The position numbers and the translations under genes were made by a program. The notes beneath the pieces were generated by a model. The model was given only the letters and a program-made list of their open reading frames with translations. It was not told the DNA's origin and ran no database searches. Positions 9,822 through 41,985 of a stretch of DNA of 42,876 nt are shown piece by piece (within the stretch, counting starts at the first letter, position 1; every line of letters begins with the position of its first letter). This DNA is from a virus (lineage: Duplodnaviria > Heunggongvirae > Uroviricota > Caudoviricetes). Location: IMG/VR virus record IMGVR_UViG_2541047698_000015; one strand, given 5' to 3'.

Positions 9822-10175
9822 TTATCGTCGCCGGTTAACAGCGGGTGGTTGCCCACGGTTGAGCCAGAGATAACAGCTTCCCCCGTCATCCGGAGAAACA
9901 CGATCCACCCAGAACATCTCGCCGTTAATGGTCAGCGTGTCACCACGCCGCACGGCACGCACCGTATCCGTCCGCACAAATAATGACGGGCTGCTTCCTT
10001 CAATACGGACCCCGCCACCGGCAAAACCCAGCGACTCCGGATCGTCAAAAACCCCCTGAACTTCGCCGCCACGTTGTGCTCCGGAGGTGAACTGCGCACG
10101 GATCCCCATCACTTCAACGATCGTACTGTCCACCCCGGCGAGGGCAGCATCAAAGGCATTCTGAAAATCACGCAT
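9822..10175 (-). CDS. FII: head-tail joining protein FII
   Basis: 117 aa ending ...DRVSPDDGGSCYLWLNRGQPPAVNRRR, matches lambda gpFII. Confidence 0.9.
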   Translation of the reverse strand: MRDFQNAFDAALAGVDSTIVEVMGIRAQFTSGAQRGGEVQGVFDDPESLGFAGGGVRIEGSSPSLFVRTDTVRAVRRGDTLTINGEMFWVDRVSPDDGGSCYLWLNRGQPPAVNRRR

Positions 10176-26024: not shown

Positions 26025-26137
26025 TACTTAACAGAACTTTTATTTTTGACAAACATATAATATTTTCAACAATATCCTGAGCCAGGTATATTTCAGTATA
26101 AGGCTCTGCCGGAAGGAATCTGGAAGAATGAATATAG

Positions 26138-26211
26138 CGCGCTGTACTGGATTCGAACCAGTGACCGATTGCTTAGAAGGCAATTGCTCTGTCCGGCTGA
26201 GCTAACAACGC
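26138..26211 (-). tRNA. tRNA-Arg (anticodon UCU), argN/argO-like; CCA end not encoded
   Basis: Cloverleaf readable by hand: acceptor GCGUUGU/ACAGCGC, D-arm AGCTCAGCCGGACAGAGC, anticodon loop CUUCUAA, T-arm ACTGG-TTCGAAT-CCAGT. Confidence 0.8.
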
Positions 26212-26311: not shown

Positions 26312-26387
26312 TGGTGGCCCTTGCTGGATTTGAACCAGCGACCTGGCGATTATGAGTCGCTCGCTCTCACCACTGAGCTAAAGGGCC
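26312..26387 (-). tRNA. tRNA with CAU anticodon (Ile2-lysidine type, ileZ-like; Met not excluded)
   Basis: GGCCCTTTAGCTCAGTGGTGAGAGCGAGCGACTCATAATCGCCAGGTCGCTGGTTCAAATCCAGCAAGGGCCACCA on minus; anticodon loop CUCAUAA; CCA encoded. Confidence 0.8.
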
Positions 26388-35809: not shown

Positions 35810-36217
35810 ATGAACGAGAAAACTTTAGGTCAACGAATTAGAGAAAGACGCAAACAGGTTGGTTTAAGTCAAAACGATTTAAGCAAAGCCGCTGGCGTAT
35901 CTGGCTCATCAATTTCACTATGGGAAAGCGACCATACAGCCCCGCGCGGGCAAAATTTGCATCGCCTGGCTGAGGTATTGCAATGTTCACCAACTTGGAT
36001 ACTGTTTGGTGACGAGGATAAAACACCAGATCCACCAGTAGCACTCAACAGCGCCTTAGACTTATCGGAAGATGAGTTGGAGATGTTGCGATTGTATCGC
36101 GCACTTCCAAAATCAGAGCAGCAAGCACAAATCAGCGAACTCCGTGCCCGCGTTGAGAATTTTAATCGCCTATTCACCGAGCTACTAGAAGCTCGCAAAC
36201 GTAACAAACATCAGTAA
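35810..36217 (+). CDS. dicA: DicA-like HTH (XRE) repressor, 135 aa, no S24 peptidase domain
   Basis: MNEKTLGQRIRERRKQVGLSQNDLSKAAGVSGSSISLWE...LQCSPTWILFGDEDK; same length and conserved C-terminal motif as DicA of Qin. Confidence 0.85.
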   Translation: MNEKTLGQRIRERRKQVGLSQNDLSKAAGVSGSSISLWESDHTAPRGQNLHRLAEVLQCSPTWILFGDEDKTPDPPVALNSALDLSEDELEMLRLYRALPKSEQQAQISELRARVENFNRLFTELLEARKRNKHQ

Positions 36218-37379: not shown

Positions 37380-37438
37380 CCATGTGTAGTCTTTGGTGGC
37401 ATCAGTTCTACTCCGTGACTGCTCTGCCGCCCTTTTTA
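37380..37438 (+). ncRNA. dicF: DicF-like small RNA (ftsZ-targeting sRNA family) with terminator-like 3' end
   Basis: TCTTTGGTGGCATCAGTTCTACTCCGTGACTGCTCTGCCGCCCTTTTT matches the 3' two-thirds of E. coli DicF as I recall it; 5' seed region differs. Confidence 0.6.
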
Positions 37439-37612
37439 AAGTGAATTTTGTGATGCGGTGAATGCGGCTCAGCGCACGCGGAACAGTTAAAACAAGCGGT
37501 CTTTTACGGGCGTAACGGGAATGCTCTGTATCCGGCGTTAATTGTTAACTGGTTAACGTCACCTGGAGGCACCAGGCACCGCATCACAAAATTCATTGTT
37601 GAGGACGCGATA

Positions 37613-37801
37613 ATGGAAACGTTATTACCAAACGTTAATACGTCTGAAGGTTGTTTTGATATTGGTGTTCTGCTCAGTAACCGGGAGTTTACGGAAGATG
37701 CCATTAAGATGAGAAAATATGAACCTTATCTTCTCAATGATAATTCCATACTTTCCAGAATTGCCCTTCTTGAACTTGGTATTATCGGAGAACAGCAGTG
37801 A
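37613..37801 (+). CDS. dicB: cell-division inhibitor DicB
   Basis: 62 aa, METLLPNVNTSEGCFDIGVLLSNREFTEDAIKMRKYE..., N-terminus as in Qin DicB. Confidence 0.85.
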   Translation: METLLPNVNTSEGCFDIGVLLSNREFTEDAIKMRKYEPYLLNDNSILSRIALLELGIIGEQQ

Positions 37802-37986
37802 CTTCAGCATTTGCGCTGGTGATGACCGTTTTTCTTATAACGGGTGAGCCACAAAATGTGATTACCGGAATTTATGACAGTAAGTCATCCTGCATTCAGG
37901 TAAGGGACGAACAAAAAATCCCCGGTGAATGCCTCCCGTTAAAAAAAGTATCGCTGAACCTGAATAACGAAATACCGGCTGGATAA
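37798..37986 (+). CDS. ydfD: YdfD-like small membrane (lysis-type) protein
   Basis: 62 aa, MTSAFALVMTVFLITGEPQN...EQKIPGECLPLKKVSLNLNNEIPAG, resembles Qin YdfD; ATGA overlap with dicB. Confidence 0.7.
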   Translation: MTSAFALVMTVFLITGEPQNVITGIYDSKSSCIQVRDEQKIPGECLPLKKVSLNLNNEIPAG

Positions 37987-38081
37987 CCCGCCAGCCATAT
38001 TAACGCCATACCAACGGATTAAAAATGCCAGCAATGGCAGGGATTCGTTCACCCTGAAATCTGTAATGAGGTTAAAACACA

Positions 38082-40556
38082 ATGAGTAAAATCTTTATTT
38101 GCGCTGCTATTCCTGACGAACAGGCCATAAAAGAAGATAGCGCTGTTGCGGTGGCCACTGCCATTGAAGCCGGTGATGAACGTCGCGCCCGCGCAAAATT
38201 TCACTGGCAATTCCTGGAACATTATCCGGCTGCTCAGGACTGCGCTTATAAATTTCTTGTTTGCGAGGATAAACCCGGTATACCCCGCCCTGCCCTCGAT
38301 TCCTGGGATGCTGAATATATGCAGGAAAACCGCTGGGATGAGGAATCCGCTTCCTTTATTCCGGTCGAACCAGAATCCGATCCGATGAACGTCAATTTTG
38401 ACAAGCTGTCCCTTGAAGTACAGAACGCGGTCCTGGTTAAGTTCGGTACATGTGAAAACATCACCGTTGATATGGCGATTGACGCGCAGGAATTACTGCA
38501 GGAAGACGTTGCTACCTTTGACGGGCATATCGTTGAAGCACTGATGAAAACGCCTGAAATTAACGCTATGTATCCGGAACGCAAACTGTTCGCTATCGGA
38601 TGGGTTAAACACAAATGTAATCCGGGTGCCAAATGGCCAGAAATTCAGGCTGAATTACGTAACTGGAAAAAACGGCAGGACGCAGAGCGCAAAGAGACTG
38701 GAAAATACACGTCTGTTGTTGATCTCGCCCGCGCCAGAGTCAATCAACAGCACACTGAAAACTCAGCAGGAAAAATCAACCCAGTCACTGCCGCCATTTG
38801 TCGCGAATACAAGCAGACATGGAAAACGCTGGATGAAGAACTGGCCTACGCTCTCTGGCCTGGCGATATTGATACCGGAAACATTGACGGCAGCATCCAT
38901 CGCTGGGCAAAAAATGAAGTTATCGACAAAGATCGCGAAGACTGGAAGCGCATTTCCGCATCAATGCGCAAACAACCCGATGCCGTTCGCTACGACCGTC
39001 AGACTATTTTTGGCCTTGTCCGTGAGCGTCCGATCGACATTCACAAAGATCCCGTAGCACTGAACAAATACATCACTGAATACCTGACTACCAAGGGCGT
39101 GTTTGAAGATGACGAAGGAACAAATCAGGGCACAGCTGGTACTCTCCCGTCACCAGTACCAGAAACTGATGCAGTGGAAACGGCAATGCCGGACAACGAA
39201 AAAACCGAATGCGAAGTGGAAGACGAACCATCTGTAGAGCGTGAGGGACCGTTCTACTTCCTTTTCACCGATAAGGACGGCGAAAAATACGGTCGCGCAA
39301 ACAAACTTTCTGGTCTGGAAAAAGCACTGGCCCTGGGAGCTACGGAAATCACAAAAGAGGAATACTTCGCACGTAAAAACGGCACGTACTCAGGTTCACA
39401 ACAAAATACTGGTGCATCTGACACGATCGCACAACCAGAGCCGGTAAAAGTTACCGCTGACGAAGTAAACAAAATTATGCAGGCAGCCAATATCAGCCAG
39501 CCTGACGCCAATAAGTTGCTTGCTGTATCACGTGGTGAATTTGTTGCAGGGATTAGCGCCCCGAATGATCCGAAATGGGTGAAGGGGATTGAAACCCGCG
39601 ATTCAGTGAATCAGAACCAGCAAGAAACGGAACAGAACGGCCAGAAAGCGGAACAAAACAGCCCAAATGCGTTACAAAACGAGCCAGAAACGAAACATCC
39701 TGAACCAGTGGCGCAACAGGAAGTGGAAAAAGTCTGCACCGCCTGCGGTCAGACCGGCGGCGGCAACTACCCTGATTGTGGCGCGGTGATGGGCGACGCA
39801 ACATACCAGGAAACATTCGATGAAGAGTATCAGGTTGAAGTTCAGGAAGATGATCCGGAGGAAATGGAAGGCGCTGAACATCCACACAAGGAGAACACTG
39901 GCGGCAATCAGCATCACGATAGCGATAATGAAACTGGCGAGACGGCAGATCACTCAATTAAGGTGAACGGTCATCAAGAAATCACATCCACCAGCAGGAC
40001 GTGTGACCATCTAATGATCGACCTTGAAACCATGGGAAAAAATCCTGATGCCCCGATCATCTCAATAGGTGCAATATTTTTCGATCCGCAAACCGGAGAT
40101 ATGGGACCGGAATTTAGTAAGACTATCGATCTGGAAACTGCTGGCGGAGTCATTGATCGGGACACCATTAAATGGTGGCTTAAGCAATCACGCGAAGCGC
40201 AATCTGCCATTATGACCGATGAAATCCCGTTAGATGATGCACTGTTACAATTGCGGGAATTTATCGACGAAAACTCCGGTGAATTTTTTGTTCAGGTCTG
40301 GGGAAATGGAGCCAACTTCGACAACACGATTTTGCGCCGTTCATACGAACGGCAGGGGATCCCCTGCCCGTGGCGTTACTACAACGATCGCGATGTACGC
40401 ACAATCGTTGAGCTGGGGAAGGCCATAGACTTCGATGCCAGAACGGCTATTCCATTCGAAGGTGAGCGCCATAATGCACTTGATGACGCCCGTTACCAGG
40501 CAAAATACGTTTCAGCTATCTGGCAAAAACTGATCCCGAGTCAGGCTGATTTTTAA
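38082..40556 (+). CDS. 824-aa RecE-N-like / YdfE-like protein with C-terminal DEDDh (DnaQ-like) 3'-5' exonuclease domain
   Basis: N-terminus MSKIFICAAIPDEQAIKEDSAVAVA... as in Qin ydfE; central LLAVSRGEFVAGISAPNDPKWVKGIETRD resembles the Rac RecE N-region; C-terminus has Exo I (MIDLETMG), Exo II (VWGNGANFD) and Exo III (HNALDDARY) motifs. Confidence 0.8.
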   Translation: MSKIFICAAIPDEQAIKEDSAVAVATAIEAGDERRARAKFHWQFLEHYPAAQDCAYKFLVCEDKPGIPRPALDSWDAEYMQENRWDEESASFIPVEPESDPMNVNFDKLSLEVQNAVLVKFGTCENITVDMAIDAQELLQEDVATFDGHIVEALMKTPEINAMYPERKLFAIGWVKHKCNPGAKWPEIQAELRNWKKRQDAERKETGKYTSVVDLARARVNQQHTENSAGKINPVTAAICREYKQTWKTLDEELAYALWPGDIDTGNIDGSIHRWAKNEVIDKDREDWKRISASMRKQPDAVRYDRQTIFGLVRERPIDIHKDPVALNKYITEYLTTKGVFEDDEGTNQGTAGTLPSPVPETDAVETAMPDNEKTECEVEDEPSVEREGPFYFLFTDKDGEKYGRANKLSGLEKALALGATEITKEEYFARKNGTYSGSQQNTGASDTIAQPEPVKVTADEVNKIMQAANISQPDANKLLAVSRGEFVAGISAPNDPKWVKGIETRDSVNQNQQETEQNGQKAEQNSPNALQNEPETKHPEPVAQQEVEKVCTACGQTGGGNYPDCGAVMGDATYQETFDEEYQVEVQEDDPEEMEGAEHPHKENTGGNQHHDSDNETGETADHSIKVNGHQEITSTSRTCDHLMIDLETMGKNPDAPIISIGAIFFDPQTGDMGPEFSKTIDLETAGGVIDRDTIKWWLKQSREAQSAIMTDEIPLDDALLQLREFIDENSGEFFVQVWGNGANFDNTILRRSYERQGIPCPWRYYNDRDVRTIVELGKAIDFDARTAIPFEGERHNALDDARYQAKYVSAIWQKLIPSQADF

Positions 40557-40614
40557 TGTTCAACCCTAATTGCCGCTAACCGTATATAGTTAGCGGCGGT
40601 TATGAGATATAGCT

Positions 40615-40818
40615 ATGAGTAGCTTATTTTTAACCGAAGATGAATTGCTAATATTAACGGGCTGCAAATATGCAAGCCACCAGCGAAAATGGTTAACGGA
40701 AAACGGGCTTCCGTTCTATACCAATCGTAGTGGCAAACCGATTGTCAGCCGGGATCTATTTACCTGCAATAAAACTTTACCACCACGCGAGGTAGAGCCG
40801 AATTTTGGTGCAATCTGA
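40615..40818 (+). CDS. xis: excisionase (Xis-like small DNA-binding protein)
   Basis: 67 aa directly upstream of int with TGATG stop/start overlap; sequence unlike lambda Xis, call is positional. Confidence 0.65.
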   Translation: MSSLFLTEDELLILTGCKYASHQRKWLTENGLPFYTNRSGKPIVSRDLFTCNKTLPPREVEPNFGAI

Positions 40819-41843
40819 TGGGAAGACGAAGGAAAAATCCTGAACACGAAAAACTACCTCCAAATGTATATCCAAATAAATATAGTTATGTATGGAAACC
40901 AACATCCAGAGAATCTGTCACACTAACCGCCATCAAGGATGGTTTAGCTGCTTTATGGAAAAGGTATGAGGAAACTGTAAATAATCGCGATCGCGCAATG
41001 ACATTCGGTCGCTTGTGGGAAAAATTCCTCGCCAGCGCCTATTACAGTGACCTCAGTCCAAGAACACAAAAAGATTATCTGCAACATCAAAAAAAGTTGC
41101 TTGCCGTATTCGGTAAGGTGCCGGCAGATTCCATAAAACCAGAACACATCCGTCGATACATGGACCAGAGAGGGGGGCAGAGTAAAACGCAAGCCAACCA
41201 TGAAAAAAGCAGTATGTCCCGCGTTTACAGTTGGGGATATGAGCGAGGGTACGTGAAGGCTAACCCATGTGCAGGTGTAAGTAAATTCAAGGCCAAAAAC
41301 CGCGAACGATATGTAACCGACAAAGAATACCAGGCAGTATTAAGCGTTGCACCTCTTCCTGTTTTTATCGCAATGGAAATTGCCTATCTGTGTGCAGCGA
41401 GGGTTTCCGATGTGTTATCGCTGAAATGGGAGCAGATTGGAAACGACGGGATCTTTATCCAGCAAGGGAAAACAGGGAAAAAACAGATAAAAGCATGGAG
41501 TCCACGATTACAGGCGGCGATCGAAAAAGCAAAACAGTTACCAACATCCGCCTATGTAATCAGCAATCAATACGGCAACCGATATATGTACAAAGGCTTT
41601 AACGAAATGTGGGTAGAAGCAAGAAATCGCGCAGGCAAAATTTCAGGTATTTTAACCGACTTCACCTTTCATGATCTGAAGGCGAAAGGAATTTCAGACT
41701 ATGAAGGAAGCAGCCGGGATAAGCAACTTTTCTCTGGTCACAAAACCGAGGGGCAAGTGCTAATCTATGACAGGAAGGTTAAAGTTTCACCGACACTTGA
41801 TGTCCCGTTACCTGAAAATATTCCAAGAAAATATTCCAAGTAA
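40818..41843 (+). CDS. int: tyrosine-type site-specific integrase
   Basis: 341 aa with C-terminal catalytic region (…HDLKAKGISDY…GHKTEGQVLIYDRK); adjacent to the tRNA-Ser 3' end. Confidence 0.9.
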   Translation: MGRRRKNPEHEKLPPNVYPNKYSYVWKPTSRESVTLTAIKDGLAALWKRYEETVNNRDRAMTFGRLWEKFLASAYYSDLSPRTQKDYLQHQKKLLAVFGKVPADSIKPEHIRRYMDQRGGQSKTQANHEKSSMSRVYSWGYERGYVKANPCAGVSKFKAKNRERYVTDKEYQAVLSVAPLPVFIAMEIAYLCAARVSDVLSLKWEQIGNDGIFIQQGKTGKKQIKAWSPRLQAAIEKAKQLPTSAYVISNQYGNRYMYKGFNEMWVEARNRAGKISGILTDFTFHDLKAKGISDYEGSSRDKQLFSGHKTEGQVLIYDRKVKVSPTLDVPLPENIPRKYSK

Positions 41844-41895: not shown

Positions 41896-41985
41896 TGGCG
41901 GAGAGAGGGGGATTTGAACCCCCGGTGGAGTTGCCCCCACTCCGGTTTTCGAGACCGGTCCGTTCAGCCGCTCCGGCATCTCTCC
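41896..41985 (-). tRNA. serU: tRNA-Ser (anticodon CGA), serU-like; integration target
   Basis: Minus strand reads GGAGAGATGCCGGAGCGGCTGAACGGACCGGTCTCGAAAACCGGAGTGGGGGCAACTCCACCGGGGGTTCAAATCCCCCTCTCTCCGCCA (90 nt, long variable arm, CCA encoded). Confidence 0.9.

What the first reader, a model, noticed from the sequence alone, without database searches (positions are those of the whole stretch)
38082..40556. RecE-N-like protein fused to a DEDDh exonuclease domain, with no adjacent annealase
The N-terminal two-thirds resembles the RecE N-region/YdfE, but the C-terminal ~190 aa carries clear Exo I/II/III motifs of a DnaQ-like 3'-5' exonuclease rather than the PD-(D/E)XK domain of canonical RecE. 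No RecT/Bet/Erf-like gene lies between it and xis. An orphan exonuclease in the early-left operon could act in recombination, anti-defence or host-nucleic-acid processing.
Basis: partly seen in the sequence, partly recalled or inferred. Interest (0 to 1): 0.5.

Follow-up and report, generated by a model that had tools for sequence, protein, structure and literature searches.

The report
Prophage RecE-like scaffold with 3'-5' exonuclease
This is the intact form of the E. coli K-12 pseudogene ydfE: a very common, already annotated prophage protein that joins a RecE-like scaffold to a DnaQ-type 3'-5' exonuclease, most likely a DNA-end-trimming enzyme of a reduced phage recombination module, though its function has never been tested.

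Summary
ORF 38082-40556 (+) encodes 824 aa. Residues 643-814 match Pfam Rv2179c-like 3'-5' exonuclease (E=1.5e-67) with an intact DEDDh pentad (D647, E649, D747, H797, D802). Residues 1-256 are 87% identical to K-12 YdfE, and residues 262-626 align with RecE 278-591, ending where RecE's PD-(D/E)XK nuclease begins. No annealase, SSB or RecBCD inhibitor is detectable anywhere in the window.

It is not new. Full-length copies occur in 3,511 of 5,426 complete E. coli genomes and in viable phages (mEp460, Tritos). RefSeq calls it "3'-5' exonuclease", PHROG 2082 covers it end to end, and Pfam has YdfE_N/YdfE_C. A 2025 paper already lists DnaQ-like nucleases in lambdoid recombination modules.

Best reading: an induction-expressed DNA 3'-end processing nuclease that works with host recombination. 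A defence role like the published HREX system is less likely. Interest is modest.

The parts
38082..40556 (+). Whole gene: 824-aa YdfE/RecE-scaffold plus DEDDh exonuclease (intact form of K-12 ydfE)
   Evidence: ORF list. PHROG 2082 'exonuclease' matches 1-824 of 823 profile positions, E=0. 99.8% nt identity to RefSeq genes annotated 'exonuclease' or '3'-5' exonuclease'.
38068..38071 (+). Shine-Dalgarno GAGG, 10 nt before the ATG
   Evidence: Read from the sequence.
38082..38681 (+). Folded N-terminal domain, aa 1-200 (YdfE_N type)
   Evidence: 87% identical to K-12 YdfE. AF2 pLDDT about 90. dN/dS about 0.10. Pfam label YdfE_N on 96-100%-identical proteins. No solved or viral structural relative.
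38814..39110 (+). Helical domain, aa 245-343; start of the RecE-homologous stretch (RecE about 278-340)
   Evidence: AF2 pLDDT 80-94. BLASTP to RecE. dN/dS 0.09-0.17.
39111..39242 (+). Acidic disordered linker, aa 344-387
   Evidence: 35% Asp/Glu. pLDDT about 26. dN/dS about 0.8.
39243..39386 (+). Small beta/alpha domain, aa 388-435, with invariant GPFY...GRANK motif
   Evidence: Invariant columns G389 P390 F391 Y392 G404 R405 A406 N407 K408 in 55 sequences. pLDDT 77-85. dN/dS 0.04.
39423..39959 (+). Central segment shared with Rac RecE, aa 448-626 (RecE 440-602); homology ends at the RecE nuclease boundary
   Evidence: NCBIfam PRK09709 partial match. BLASTP.
39735..39779 (+). Zinc-ribbon-like motif C552-x2-C555 ... 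Y563-P-D-C566; the third Cys of the RecE motif is Tyr here
   Evidence: Sequence. RecE reads CNACGQTGGDNCPDCG and P0124 also keeps Cys.
40002..40553 (+). DEDDh 3'-5' exonuclease domain, aa 641-824 (catalytic D647, E649, D747, H797, D802)
   Evidence: Pfam PF16473 E=1.5e-67. Invariant pentad. Nearest solved structure is T4 DexA 8KEL.
35810..36217 (+). DicA-like HTH repressor at the head of the same-strand early operon
   Evidence: ORF. The orthologue is annotated 'helix-turn-helix domain-containing protein' next to DicC. Same order as K-12 Qin dicA.
37381..37432 (+). DicF sRNA, upstream in the same operon
   Evidence: Rfam RF00039, 58.3 bits, E=4e-11.
37613..37801 (+). dicB (cell-division inhibitor)
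   Evidence: ORF. Annotation of orthologous loci.
37798..37986 (+). ydfD-like DUF1482 gene, immediately upstream
   Evidence: ORF. Annotation.
40615..40818 (+). Excisionase-position gene (DUF4224), 58 nt downstream
   Evidence: ORF. Annotation.
40818..41843 (+). Tyrosine integrase
   Evidence: ORF. Annotation, called frameshifted in two close relatives.
41896..41985 (-). tRNA-Ser (CGA), the prophage/host junction next to mtfA
   Evidence: ARAGORN. Rfam. Annotation.

Best explanation
The gene encodes the nuclease arm of a reduced lambdoid recombination ('Rec') module.

The C-terminal 184 residues are an active-looking DEDDh (DnaQ/DexA/Rv2179c-type) exonuclease that removes nucleotides from 3' ends (shown by sequence; activity inferred). 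The N-terminal 640 residues are a non-catalytic scaffold: three small folded domains and a zinc-ribbon-like element, joined by acidic disordered linkers. This scaffold is homologous to K-12 YdfE and to the middle part of RecE (shown).

The gene is the last one of the DicA-repressed dicF-dicB-ydfD operon, directly before xis-int. It is therefore made when the prophage is induced, not in the lysogen (inferred from gene order and the lack of a promoter of its own).

Because the phage has no annealase, SSB or RecBCD inhibitor but carries Chi sites at about the host's density, the enzyme most likely trims or blunts 3' DNA tails on phage replication and recombination intermediates, which the host RecBCD/RecA machinery then handles (inferred). 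The scaffold probably tethers the nuclease to the same partner or DNA structure that RecE-type nucleases and the sister Rad52-type annealases are brought to (inferred).
For: - Domain identity and intact catalytic pentad.
- Homology to RecE stops exactly at the nuclease boundary.
- Cassette architecture: PF06630-type or YdfE-type N-termini are combined with DUF3799 PD-(D/E)XK or PF16473 DEDDh.
- Stand-alone DEDDh genes lie directly after Erf or Sak4-SSB in 7 of 63 loci, and before Abc2 in one more.
- PMC12315714 independently lists DnaQ-like 3'-5' nucleases as lambdoid Rec-module members.
- T4 DexA, the nearest solved relative, is a DNA exonuclease with a role in intron homing.
- Synteny is conserved (repressor, small ORFs, exonuclease, xis, int) in 17 other species.
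- Folded domains are under purifying selection, dN/dS 0.04-0.17.
- The gene is present in viable phages.
- There is no promoter-like site upstream and no + strand terminator between dicB and the gene.
- The prophage has 10 Chi sites against about 1.8 expected from shuffles.
Against: - No biochemical or genetic data exist for this protein.
- 3'-5' exonucleases usually inhibit rather than promote homologous recombination, as PMC12315714 itself notes.
- The Pfam family is named after an exoribonuclease, so an RNA substrate is not excluded.
- The Chi count is only host-like and weakly oriented (6:4), unlike the 20:3 reported for LLS.
- The N-terminal scaffold has no structural relative that would show what it binds.
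- Only 7 of 63 stand-alone loci showed an annealase with my limited tblastn panel.
- A short E. coli homologue (EcD) has been reported as a defence nuclease.
Confidence: 0.5

Rival explanations
1. A prophage-encoded defence nuclease of the published HREX type. It would be a DexA-like exonuclease that spares unmodified host DNA and degrades incoming phage DNA with modified cytosines (T-even phages), giving superinfection exclusion.
For: T4 DexA is the closest solved relative. PMC12315337 reports that a short E. coli DexA homologue, EcD, degrades T4 DNA and protects cells. The gene is kept in most E. coli genomes, including defective prophages. PADLOC gives a weak generic DEDDh match.
Against: DexA's proposed 5hmC-reading residues are not conserved. 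W152 aligns with Y767, and that position is Cys in a 98%-identical domain. D169 aligns with A781, and this position is acidic in only 8 of 66 family members. DexA-specific loops are missing. The gene has no promoter of its own and lies in a repressor-controlled lytic operon. The PADLOC match is only E=1e-5 to a Cas-associated generic model. The defence idea does not explain the RecE/annealase-shared scaffold or the Rec-module positions. I could not establish how EcD relates to this protein.
Confidence: 0.12
2. A 3'-5' exoribonuclease like the family's name-giver Rv2179c, acting on RNA during lytic growth: host or phage transcripts, sRNA 3' ends such as the co-transcribed DicF, or RNA primers.
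For: The best Pfam match is 'Rv2179c-like 3'-5' exoribonuclease'. RefSeq names some copies '3'-5' exoribonuclease'. The gene is co-oriented with, and downstream of, DicF.
Against: The name reflects one characterised member only. The nearest characterised phage member, DexA, is a DNase. Stand-alone homologues sit next to Erf, Sak4 and SSB, and the scaffold is shared with a DNA nuclease (RecE) and a Rad52-fold annealase. Nothing else in the locus is RNA-related.
Confidence: 0.12
3. An anti-defence effector. The exonuclease would destroy a host immune nucleic acid, for example retron msDNA, reverse-transcriptase cDNA products or linear oligonucleotide signals, early after induction or infection.
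For: Only circumstantial: it is an early-operon accessory gene with no obvious partner, and DEDDh enzymes can degrade short ssDNA and oligonucleotides (general knowledge).
Against: No tool result points to it. The gene is not next to known anti-defence genes. The conserved position and scaffold link it to Rec modules instead.
Confidence: 0.1
4. A decaying, functionless relic of a RecE-like gene that lost its RecT partner.
For: The K-12 copy (ydfE) is an IS2-truncated pseudogene. There is no annealase. The adjacent integrase is annotated as frameshifted in two close relatives. The third Cys of the zinc-ribbon-like motif is lost.
Against: The 824-codon frame and the catalytic pentad are intact. 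dN/dS is 0.04-0.17 on folded domains against about 0.8 on the linker. Full-length copies occur in 3,511 genomes and in viable phages. The same orphan arrangement is kept in 17 species of Enterobacterales.
Confidence: 0.05

Closest known systems
Rac prophage RecE (exonuclease VIII, E. coli K-12 b1350)
   Same: Same position in the early-left operon upstream of xis-int. Residues 262-626 are homologous to RecE 278-591, including the KLLA.SRGEFV.GIS.PNDPKWVKGI segment and the zinc-ribbon-like motif. Similar size (824 vs 866 aa) and the same plan of a long scaffold with a C-terminal nuclease.
   Different: The nuclease is DEDDh (3'-5') rather than PD-(D/E)XK/DUF3799 (5'-3'). RecE's PF06630 N-terminal domain is replaced by a YdfE_N-type domain. 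There is no recT, ralR or rcbA downstream. The NCBIfam RecE equivalog score is 272 against a cutoff of 1269.
YdfE of the K-12 Qin cryptic prophage (pseudogene b1577); Pfam YdfE_N/YdfE_C; PHROG 2082
   Same: 87% identical over residues 1-256, with the identical neighbourhood dicF-dicB-ydfD-ydfE. PHROG 2082 matches full length.
   Different: K-12 ydfE is cut by IS2E after about 256 codons and lacks everything downstream. The window copy is intact.
Phage T4 DexA (exonuclease A; PDB 8KEL/8KEN)
   Same: Nearest solved structure by sequence (E=1.5e-6, about 28% identity) with the same DEDDh pentad. It is a 3'-5' DNA exonuclease of a phage with a role in processing recombination intermediates during intron homing.
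   Different: DexA is a stand-alone 227-aa protein with extra loops used for tetramer formation. Its W152/D169 5hmC-recognition residues are Y767/A781 here. DexA belongs to a virulent phage with modified DNA.
Rv2179c of Mycobacterium tuberculosis (founding member of Pfam PF16473)
   Same: Best Pfam family match, covering the full length of the domain model.
   Different: Rv2179c is a stand-alone bacterial exoribonuclease (from the Pfam name and my recollection of the literature). It gave no PDB hit by single-sequence search here. Substrate preference cannot be transferred.
DnaQ-like 3'-5' nucleases of lambdoid Rec modules (e.g. phage epsilon34), as described in PMC12315714
   Same: Same nuclease class, same early-left operon location, and a proposed Rec-module role. 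My locus survey finds stand-alone versions after Erf or Sak4-SSB.
   Different: Those are described as tightly packed with annealase genes. The window gene is fused to a 640-aa scaffold and has no annealase. Only 9 of 246 modules in that study lacked an annealase. Whether the study included this fused type could not be checked, because its supplements are not held.
EcD / 'HREX' defence exonuclease (GenBank HAK9828821.1; PMC12315337)
   Same: An E. coli-borne DexA homologue with conserved catalytic residues.
   Different: EcD appears to be a short stand-alone protein. Its sequence relationship to this gene could not be determined. The proposed 5hmC-reading residues are absent here.
Sister family: YdfE_N/YdfE_C scaffold plus Rad52-fold C-terminus (P0135, P0285 and others; named 'exodeoxyribonuclease VIII' by NCBI)
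   Same: 31-49% identity over residues about 5-450, with the same three folded scaffold domains and the invariant GPFY...GRANK motif. Same early-left position before xis-int.
   Different: The C-terminus is a Rad52/Mgm101-like annealase fold with a long helical tail, not a nuclease. It is preceded by GamL and followed by Mu_gp6 and Sipho_Gp157 genes.

Membership tests
DEDDh (DnaQ-like) exonucleases, Pfam PF16473 Rv2179c-like | Profile score above the curated gathering threshold over the whole domain | tested here: met
   227.1 bits against a cutoff of 27, E=1.5e-67, profile positions 2-177 of 177.
DEDDh (DnaQ-like) exonucleases, Pfam PF16473 Rv2179c-like | Exo I (DxE), Exo II (D) and Exo III (Hx4D) catalytic residues all present | tested here: met
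   D647, E649, D747, H797 and D802 are present and invariant in alignments A2 and A3, which include T4 DexA.
DEDDh (DnaQ-like) exonucleases, Pfam PF16473 Rv2179c-like | Metal-dependent 3'-5' exonuclease activity, and which substrate (DNA or RNA) | not testable with these tools
   Needs enzyme assays.
RecE / exodeoxyribonuclease VIII (NCBIfam NF007259 equivalog) | Whole-protein score above the equivalog cutoff | tested here: not met
   271.7 bits against a cutoff of 1269. Only residues 448-626 match.
RecE / exodeoxyribonuclease VIII (NCBIfam NF007259 equivalog) | C-terminal PD-(D/E)XK nuclease domain (Pfam DUF3799) | tested here: not met
   Absent here and present in Rac RecE under the same scan. 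tblastn with RecE 591-866 finds nothing in the window.
RecE / exodeoxyribonuclease VIII (NCBIfam NF007259 equivalog) | N-terminal Exonuc_VIII domain (Pfam PF06630) | tested here: not met
   Not detected here. It is detected in RecE and in many other DEDDh fusions.
RecE / exodeoxyribonuclease VIII (NCBIfam NF007259 equivalog) | Cognate recT immediately downstream | tested here: not met
   xis follows after 58 nt. There is no RecT homologue in the window.
YdfE family (Pfam YdfE_N PF27430 + YdfE_C PF27432; PHROG 2082) | Sequence membership across the non-nuclease region | tested here: met
   87% identity to K-12 YdfE. PHROG 2082 matches full length with E=0. The precomputed labels PF27430 and PF27432 sit on 96-100%-identical proteins. 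These two Pfam models are not in the local Pfam copy, so they were not scored directly on the window protein.
Lambdoid Rec module (as defined in PMC12315714: nuclease, annealase, SSB, anti-RecBCD genes in the early-left operon) | Located in the early-left operon between immunity and xis/int | tested here: met
   Gene order is repressor, DicF, dicB, ydfD, exonuclease, xis, int. The same order is found in 17 other species.
Lambdoid Rec module (as defined in PMC12315714: nuclease, annealase, SSB, anti-RecBCD genes in the early-left operon) | Presence of a strand-annealing protein | tested here: not met
   No Bet, RecT, Erf, Sak4 or Rad52-like match in the window. So at most this is a nuclease-only module.
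Lambdoid Rec module (as defined in PMC12315714: nuclease, annealase, SSB, anti-RecBCD genes in the early-left operon) | Demonstrated contribution to phage recombination or growth | not testable with these tools
   Needs phage genetics.
HREX defence nucleases (DexA/EcD; PMC12315337) | Conservation of the 5hmC-recognition residues (DexA W152 and D169) | tested here: not met
   They align with Y767 and A781. The D169 column is acidic in 8 of 66 family members. Alignment in this loop region is not fully certain.
HREX defence nucleases (DexA/EcD; PMC12315337) | Expression in the uninfected (lysogenic) cell | tested here: inconclusive
   There is no promoter-like site upstream, and the gene lies in a DicA-type repressed operon. 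A consensus scan cannot prove silence.
HREX defence nucleases (DexA/EcD; PMC12315337) | Selective degradation of modified phage DNA and protection from T4 | not testable with these tools
   Needs assays.

The most novel reading that the evidence does not exclude
The RecE/YdfE N-terminal region may be a universal docking scaffold of enterobacterial prophage recombination modules. It would deliver interchangeable DNA-end effectors (a 5'-3' PD-(D/E)XK nuclease, a 3'-5' DEDDh nuclease or a Rad52-fold annealase) to one common site. The DEDDh version would then define an annealase-independent pathway in which phage 3' tails are blunted so that host RecBCD can load and act at phage Chi sites. That would give a function to the long-unexplained N-terminal region of RecE, and to a gene found in about two-thirds of E. 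coli genomes.
Probability: 0.2. Interest if true: 0.6.

Novelty: already known. Interest (0 to 1): 0.3.

Why it matters
On its own the finding re-discovers an annotated gene family, so it changes little.

It still has some value. The gene is present full-length in about 65% of complete E. coli genomes and its function has never been tested. The N-terminal region it shares with RecE is described as of unknown function in a 2023 review, although full-length RecE is what makes linear-linear recombineering efficient.

The cassette pattern seen here (one scaffold carrying a 5'-3' nuclease, a 3'-5' nuclease or a Rad52-fold annealase) gives a concrete, testable handle on what that scaffold does. It also flags a widespread misannotation: 'exodeoxyribonuclease VIII' proteins that are probably annealases.

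Tried and rejected
- A homologue search with residues 1-640 returned only near-identical E. coli copies and was useless for alignment depth. Searching with the divergent relative P0135 solved this.
- A sequence-profile search of the putative annealase domain against PDB found nothing, and Pfam Rad52_Rad22 was only sub-threshold. Only the fold comparison settled it.
- The supplementary tables of PMC12315714, which would show how mEp460-type phages were classified, are not held.
- I could not identify which subtype the published EcD protein is. No stand-alone type has Ala78 aligned with DexA D90 in my alignment.
- The Chi count was elevated but only weakly oriented, so it is weak support.
- PADLOC gave only a generic weak DEDDh match.
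- The literature searches for ydfE/Qin and for Rv2179c with prophage/exonuclease found no functional study of this protein. De Paepe et al. 2014 does not discuss it.
- My first coordinate guesses for P22 erf and HK620 sak4 missed and had to be repeated.
- I considered and rejected the idea that small upstream ORFs recurring in the fused loci hide an annealase. They match PHROGs of unknown function or excisionase.
Full report
**1. What is there**

The ORF is exactly as reported: 38082-40556 on the + strand, ATG start, 824 codons, with a GAGG Shine-Dalgarno 10 nt upstream.

Pfam places residues 643-814 in PF16473, the 'Rv2179c-like 3'-5' exoribonuclease' family (E=1.5e-67, 227 bits against a cutoff of 27), with a weak second match to RNase_T. 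The catalytic DEDDh residues are D647 and E649 (MIDLET), D747 (NFDN), and H797 with D802 (HNALDD). They are invariant in alignments that include T4 DexA, stand-alone phage homologues and other fused proteins.

No PD-(D/E)XK domain is present. Rac RecE, scanned the same way, shows DUF3799.

The non-nuclease part breaks down as follows:
- Residues 1-256 are 87% identical to the K-12 Qin pseudogene ydfE, which is cut by IS2E.
- Residues 262-626 align with RecE 278-591, nearly identically from about 480 onward. The homology stops where the RecE nuclease domain begins.
- RecE's own N-terminal Pfam domain (PF06630) is not present.

**2. Anatomy**

An AlphaFold2 model of residues 1-450, built on a 55-sequence alignment, has mean pLDDT 77.9. 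It shows three confident folded units (1-200, 245-340 and 388-435) separated by disordered, acidic linkers. After these come the RecE-like conserved segment, a zinc-ribbon-like motif in which RecE's third cysteine is a tyrosine, another acidic linker, and the nuclease.

Comparison with orthologues from phage Tritos, E. albertii and E. ruysiae gives the following:

| Region | dN/dS |
|---|---|
| Folded scaffold domains | 0.04-0.17 |
| Acidic linker (344-387) | about 0.8 |

Synonymous divergence collapses from 0.6-0.9 in the N-terminal domains to about 0.02 from residue 549 onward. The C-terminal third has therefore been exchanged recently between otherwise diverged copies.

**3. Context**

The window is a lambdoid prophage at tRNA-Ser/mtfA. 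The gene is the last member of a same-strand early operon: DicA-like repressor, small ORFs, DicF sRNA (37381-37432), dicB, a ydfD-like gene, the exonuclease, then xis 58 nt later and int. This is the order found in K-12 Qin and in phage Tritos. No promoter-like site precedes the gene and no + strand terminator separates it from dicB. It is therefore probably expressed only on induction; this is an inference.

No annealase, SSB, Gam, GamL, Abc2, lambda Exo or PD-(D/E)XK homologue is found in the whole window:
- tblastn even at E<=10 finds none, with positive controls intact.
- A PHROG scan of ten early and nin ORFs finds none.
- The PGAP annotation of a 99.4%-identical prophage names none.

The only recombination-related genes are RusA and a DUF968/HNH protein.

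**4. How common, and is it already known?**

- Full-length matches occur in 3,511 of 5,426 complete E. coli genomes, typically two places per genome.
- They also occur in viable phages: mEp460, Tritos, HannyBb, Evi and the PPompW phages.
- RefSeq names it 'exonuclease' or '3'-5' exonuclease'.
- PHROG 2082 matches it end to end.
- Pfam has YdfE_N and YdfE_C for the scaffold.

The entity is therefore already catalogued. No experimental study of it turned up.

**5. Wider comparison**

An exhaustive HMMER search found 11,784 relatives and showed clear modularity. Pfam scans and BLAST of representatives show a cassette system:

| N-terminal module | C-terminal module | Example |
|---|---|---|
| PF06630 (RecE-type) | PD-(D/E)XK (DUF3799) | Rac RecE |
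| PF06630 (RecE-type) | DEDDh | P0124, P0127, P0134 and others |
| YdfE-type | DEDDh | this gene |
| YdfE-type | PD-(D/E)XK (DUF3799) | P0139 |
| YdfE-type | Rad52-fold domain (see below) | P0135 family |

**6. Is being orphan typical?**

A scan of species-representative genomes returned 80 loci:

| DEDDh gene type | Loci | Recognisable annealase within 10 kb |
|---|---|---|
| Fused (685-828 aa) | 17 | none |
| Stand-alone (about 190 aa) | 63 | 7 |

All 17 fused genes keep the same layout of repressor, small ORFs, exonuclease, xis and int. Their recurrent small neighbours are not annealases.

Among the stand-alone genes, 4 lie directly downstream of Erf and 3 downstream of a Sak4-SSB pair. One more is followed by Abc2. 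Other stand-alone copies sit in early operons of LLS (again just before xis-int), an N15-like phage and phiARM81ld, without an annotated annealase. My tblastn panel is limited, so 7 of 63 is a lower bound.

**7. Mechanism**

*Shown:* a catalytically intact DEDDh domain; a conserved non-catalytic scaffold shared with a DNA nuclease and an annealase; a Rec-module position; no phage annealase.

*Inferred:* the enzyme is a DNA 3'-end exonuclease made on induction, tethered by its scaffold to recombination or replication intermediates, and working with host functions.

The prophage has 10 Chi sites (6 on the strand I judge active for RecBCD entering from the lysis-side end, 4 on the other) against about 1.8 expected from shuffles. 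By my recollection of about 1,000 Chi sites in MG1655, that is roughly chromosomal density, whereas lambda has none. This fits the class without an annealase or RecBCD inhibitor described by Bobay et al. 2013 and in PMC12315714, but the orientation bias is weak.

One specific, unproven possibility comes from what I recall of RecBCD loading. RecBCD needs nearly blunt ends, and host 3'-5' ssDNA exonucleases can blunt 3' tails. The phage enzyme may convert 3'-tailed ends into RecBCD substrates.

Against this reading, 3'-5' exonucleases usually inhibit recombination, as the 2025 paper itself notes.

**8. Rivals**

*HREX defence model*. It is weakened because DexA W152 and D169 align with Y767 and A781, because the D169 position is rarely acidic in the family, because DexA's oligomerisation loops are missing, and because the gene lies in a repressed operon. 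PADLOC gives only a weak generic match.

*RNase role.* This rests mainly on the Pfam name.

*Anti-defence role.* No specific support.

*Decay.* Contradicted by selection, intactness and conservation.

**9. Verdict**

It is a known, annotated, very common prophage gene of untested function, and being orphan is the norm for its class. The most useful by-products are the cassette view of the RecE/YdfE scaffold and the evidence that a widespread 'exonuclease VIII'-labelled family is really a Rad52-fold annealase fusion.

Noticed in passing
[not shown]
   Followed up: yes
L043, L044, L062, L065 (Erf) and L049, L054, L071 (Sak4-SSB), around position 10000 of each locus; L042:168-1026: Stand-alone DEDDh exonuclease genes of about 182 aa, 53-58% identical to the window domain, lie one or two ORFs downstream of Erf or directly after Sak4-SSB. 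In L042 the gene lies immediately before Abc2. So they sit inside P22/HK620-type recombination modules.
   Followed up: partly
L006:4992-5564 (Escherichia phage LLS): PMC12315714 describes phage LLS as having no known recombination genes. It nevertheless carries a 190-aa DnaQ-like exonuclease, 58% identical to the window's nuclease domain, immediately upstream of xis-int. That is the same position as the window gene.
   Followed up: partly
window 39726-40556 compared with 38082-39386: There is a sharp mosaic boundary inside the gene. Synonymous divergence from the Tritos, E. albertii and E. ruysiae orthologues is 0.6-0.9 in the N-terminal domains but about 0.02 from codon 549 to the end. This indicates recent recombination or gene conversion of the C-terminal third.
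   Followed up: partly
window 39735-39779: The zinc-ribbon-like CxxC...CxxC motif of RecE (CNACGQTGGDNCPDCG) reads CTACGQTGGGNYPDCG here, so the third cysteine is a tyrosine. The close relative P0124 keeps the cysteine. Metal binding may be lost in this copy.
   Followed up: no
window 40571-40596: A 9-bp perfect inverted repeat (GCCGCTAAC ... GTTAGCGGC) with no following U-tract lies between the exonuclease stop codon and xis. It could be an RNA processing or stability element, or a protein-binding site.
   Followed up: no
window 37381-37986: There is a complete Qin-type cell-division-inhibition cassette just upstream: DicF sRNA (Rfam 58.3 bits), dicB and a ydfD-like DUF1482 gene.
   Followed up: partly
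window 40818-41843: The integrase ORF is 341 aa in the window. In two near-identical genomes (AR_0017 and N10), PGAP annotates the orthologue as frameshifted over a 1,051-bp span reaching almost to tRNA-Ser. The prophage may therefore be excision-defective.
   Followed up: no
window 19777, 20415, 25560, 28550, 39988, 40677 (- strand) and 24409, 28092, 28144, 30462 (+ strand): There are ten Chi octamers (GCTGGTGG) in the 41.9-kb prophage against about 1.8 expected from dinucleotide shuffles. All lie in the lysis-to-int half, and one is inside the exonuclease gene.
   Followed up: partly
window 26137-26211 and 26312-26387 (- strand): There are two phage-borne tRNA genes upstream of the Q antiterminator: tRNA-Arg (TCT) and a CAT-anticodon tRNA. 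ARAGORN calls the second one Met, while PGAP calls it Ile in the orthologous prophage.
   Followed up: no
P0130 (702 aa), C-terminal ~260 aa: A fourth partner for the YdfE-type scaffold: the C-terminal region matches only PHROG 26058 (unknown function) and no nuclease or annealase family.
   Followed up: no
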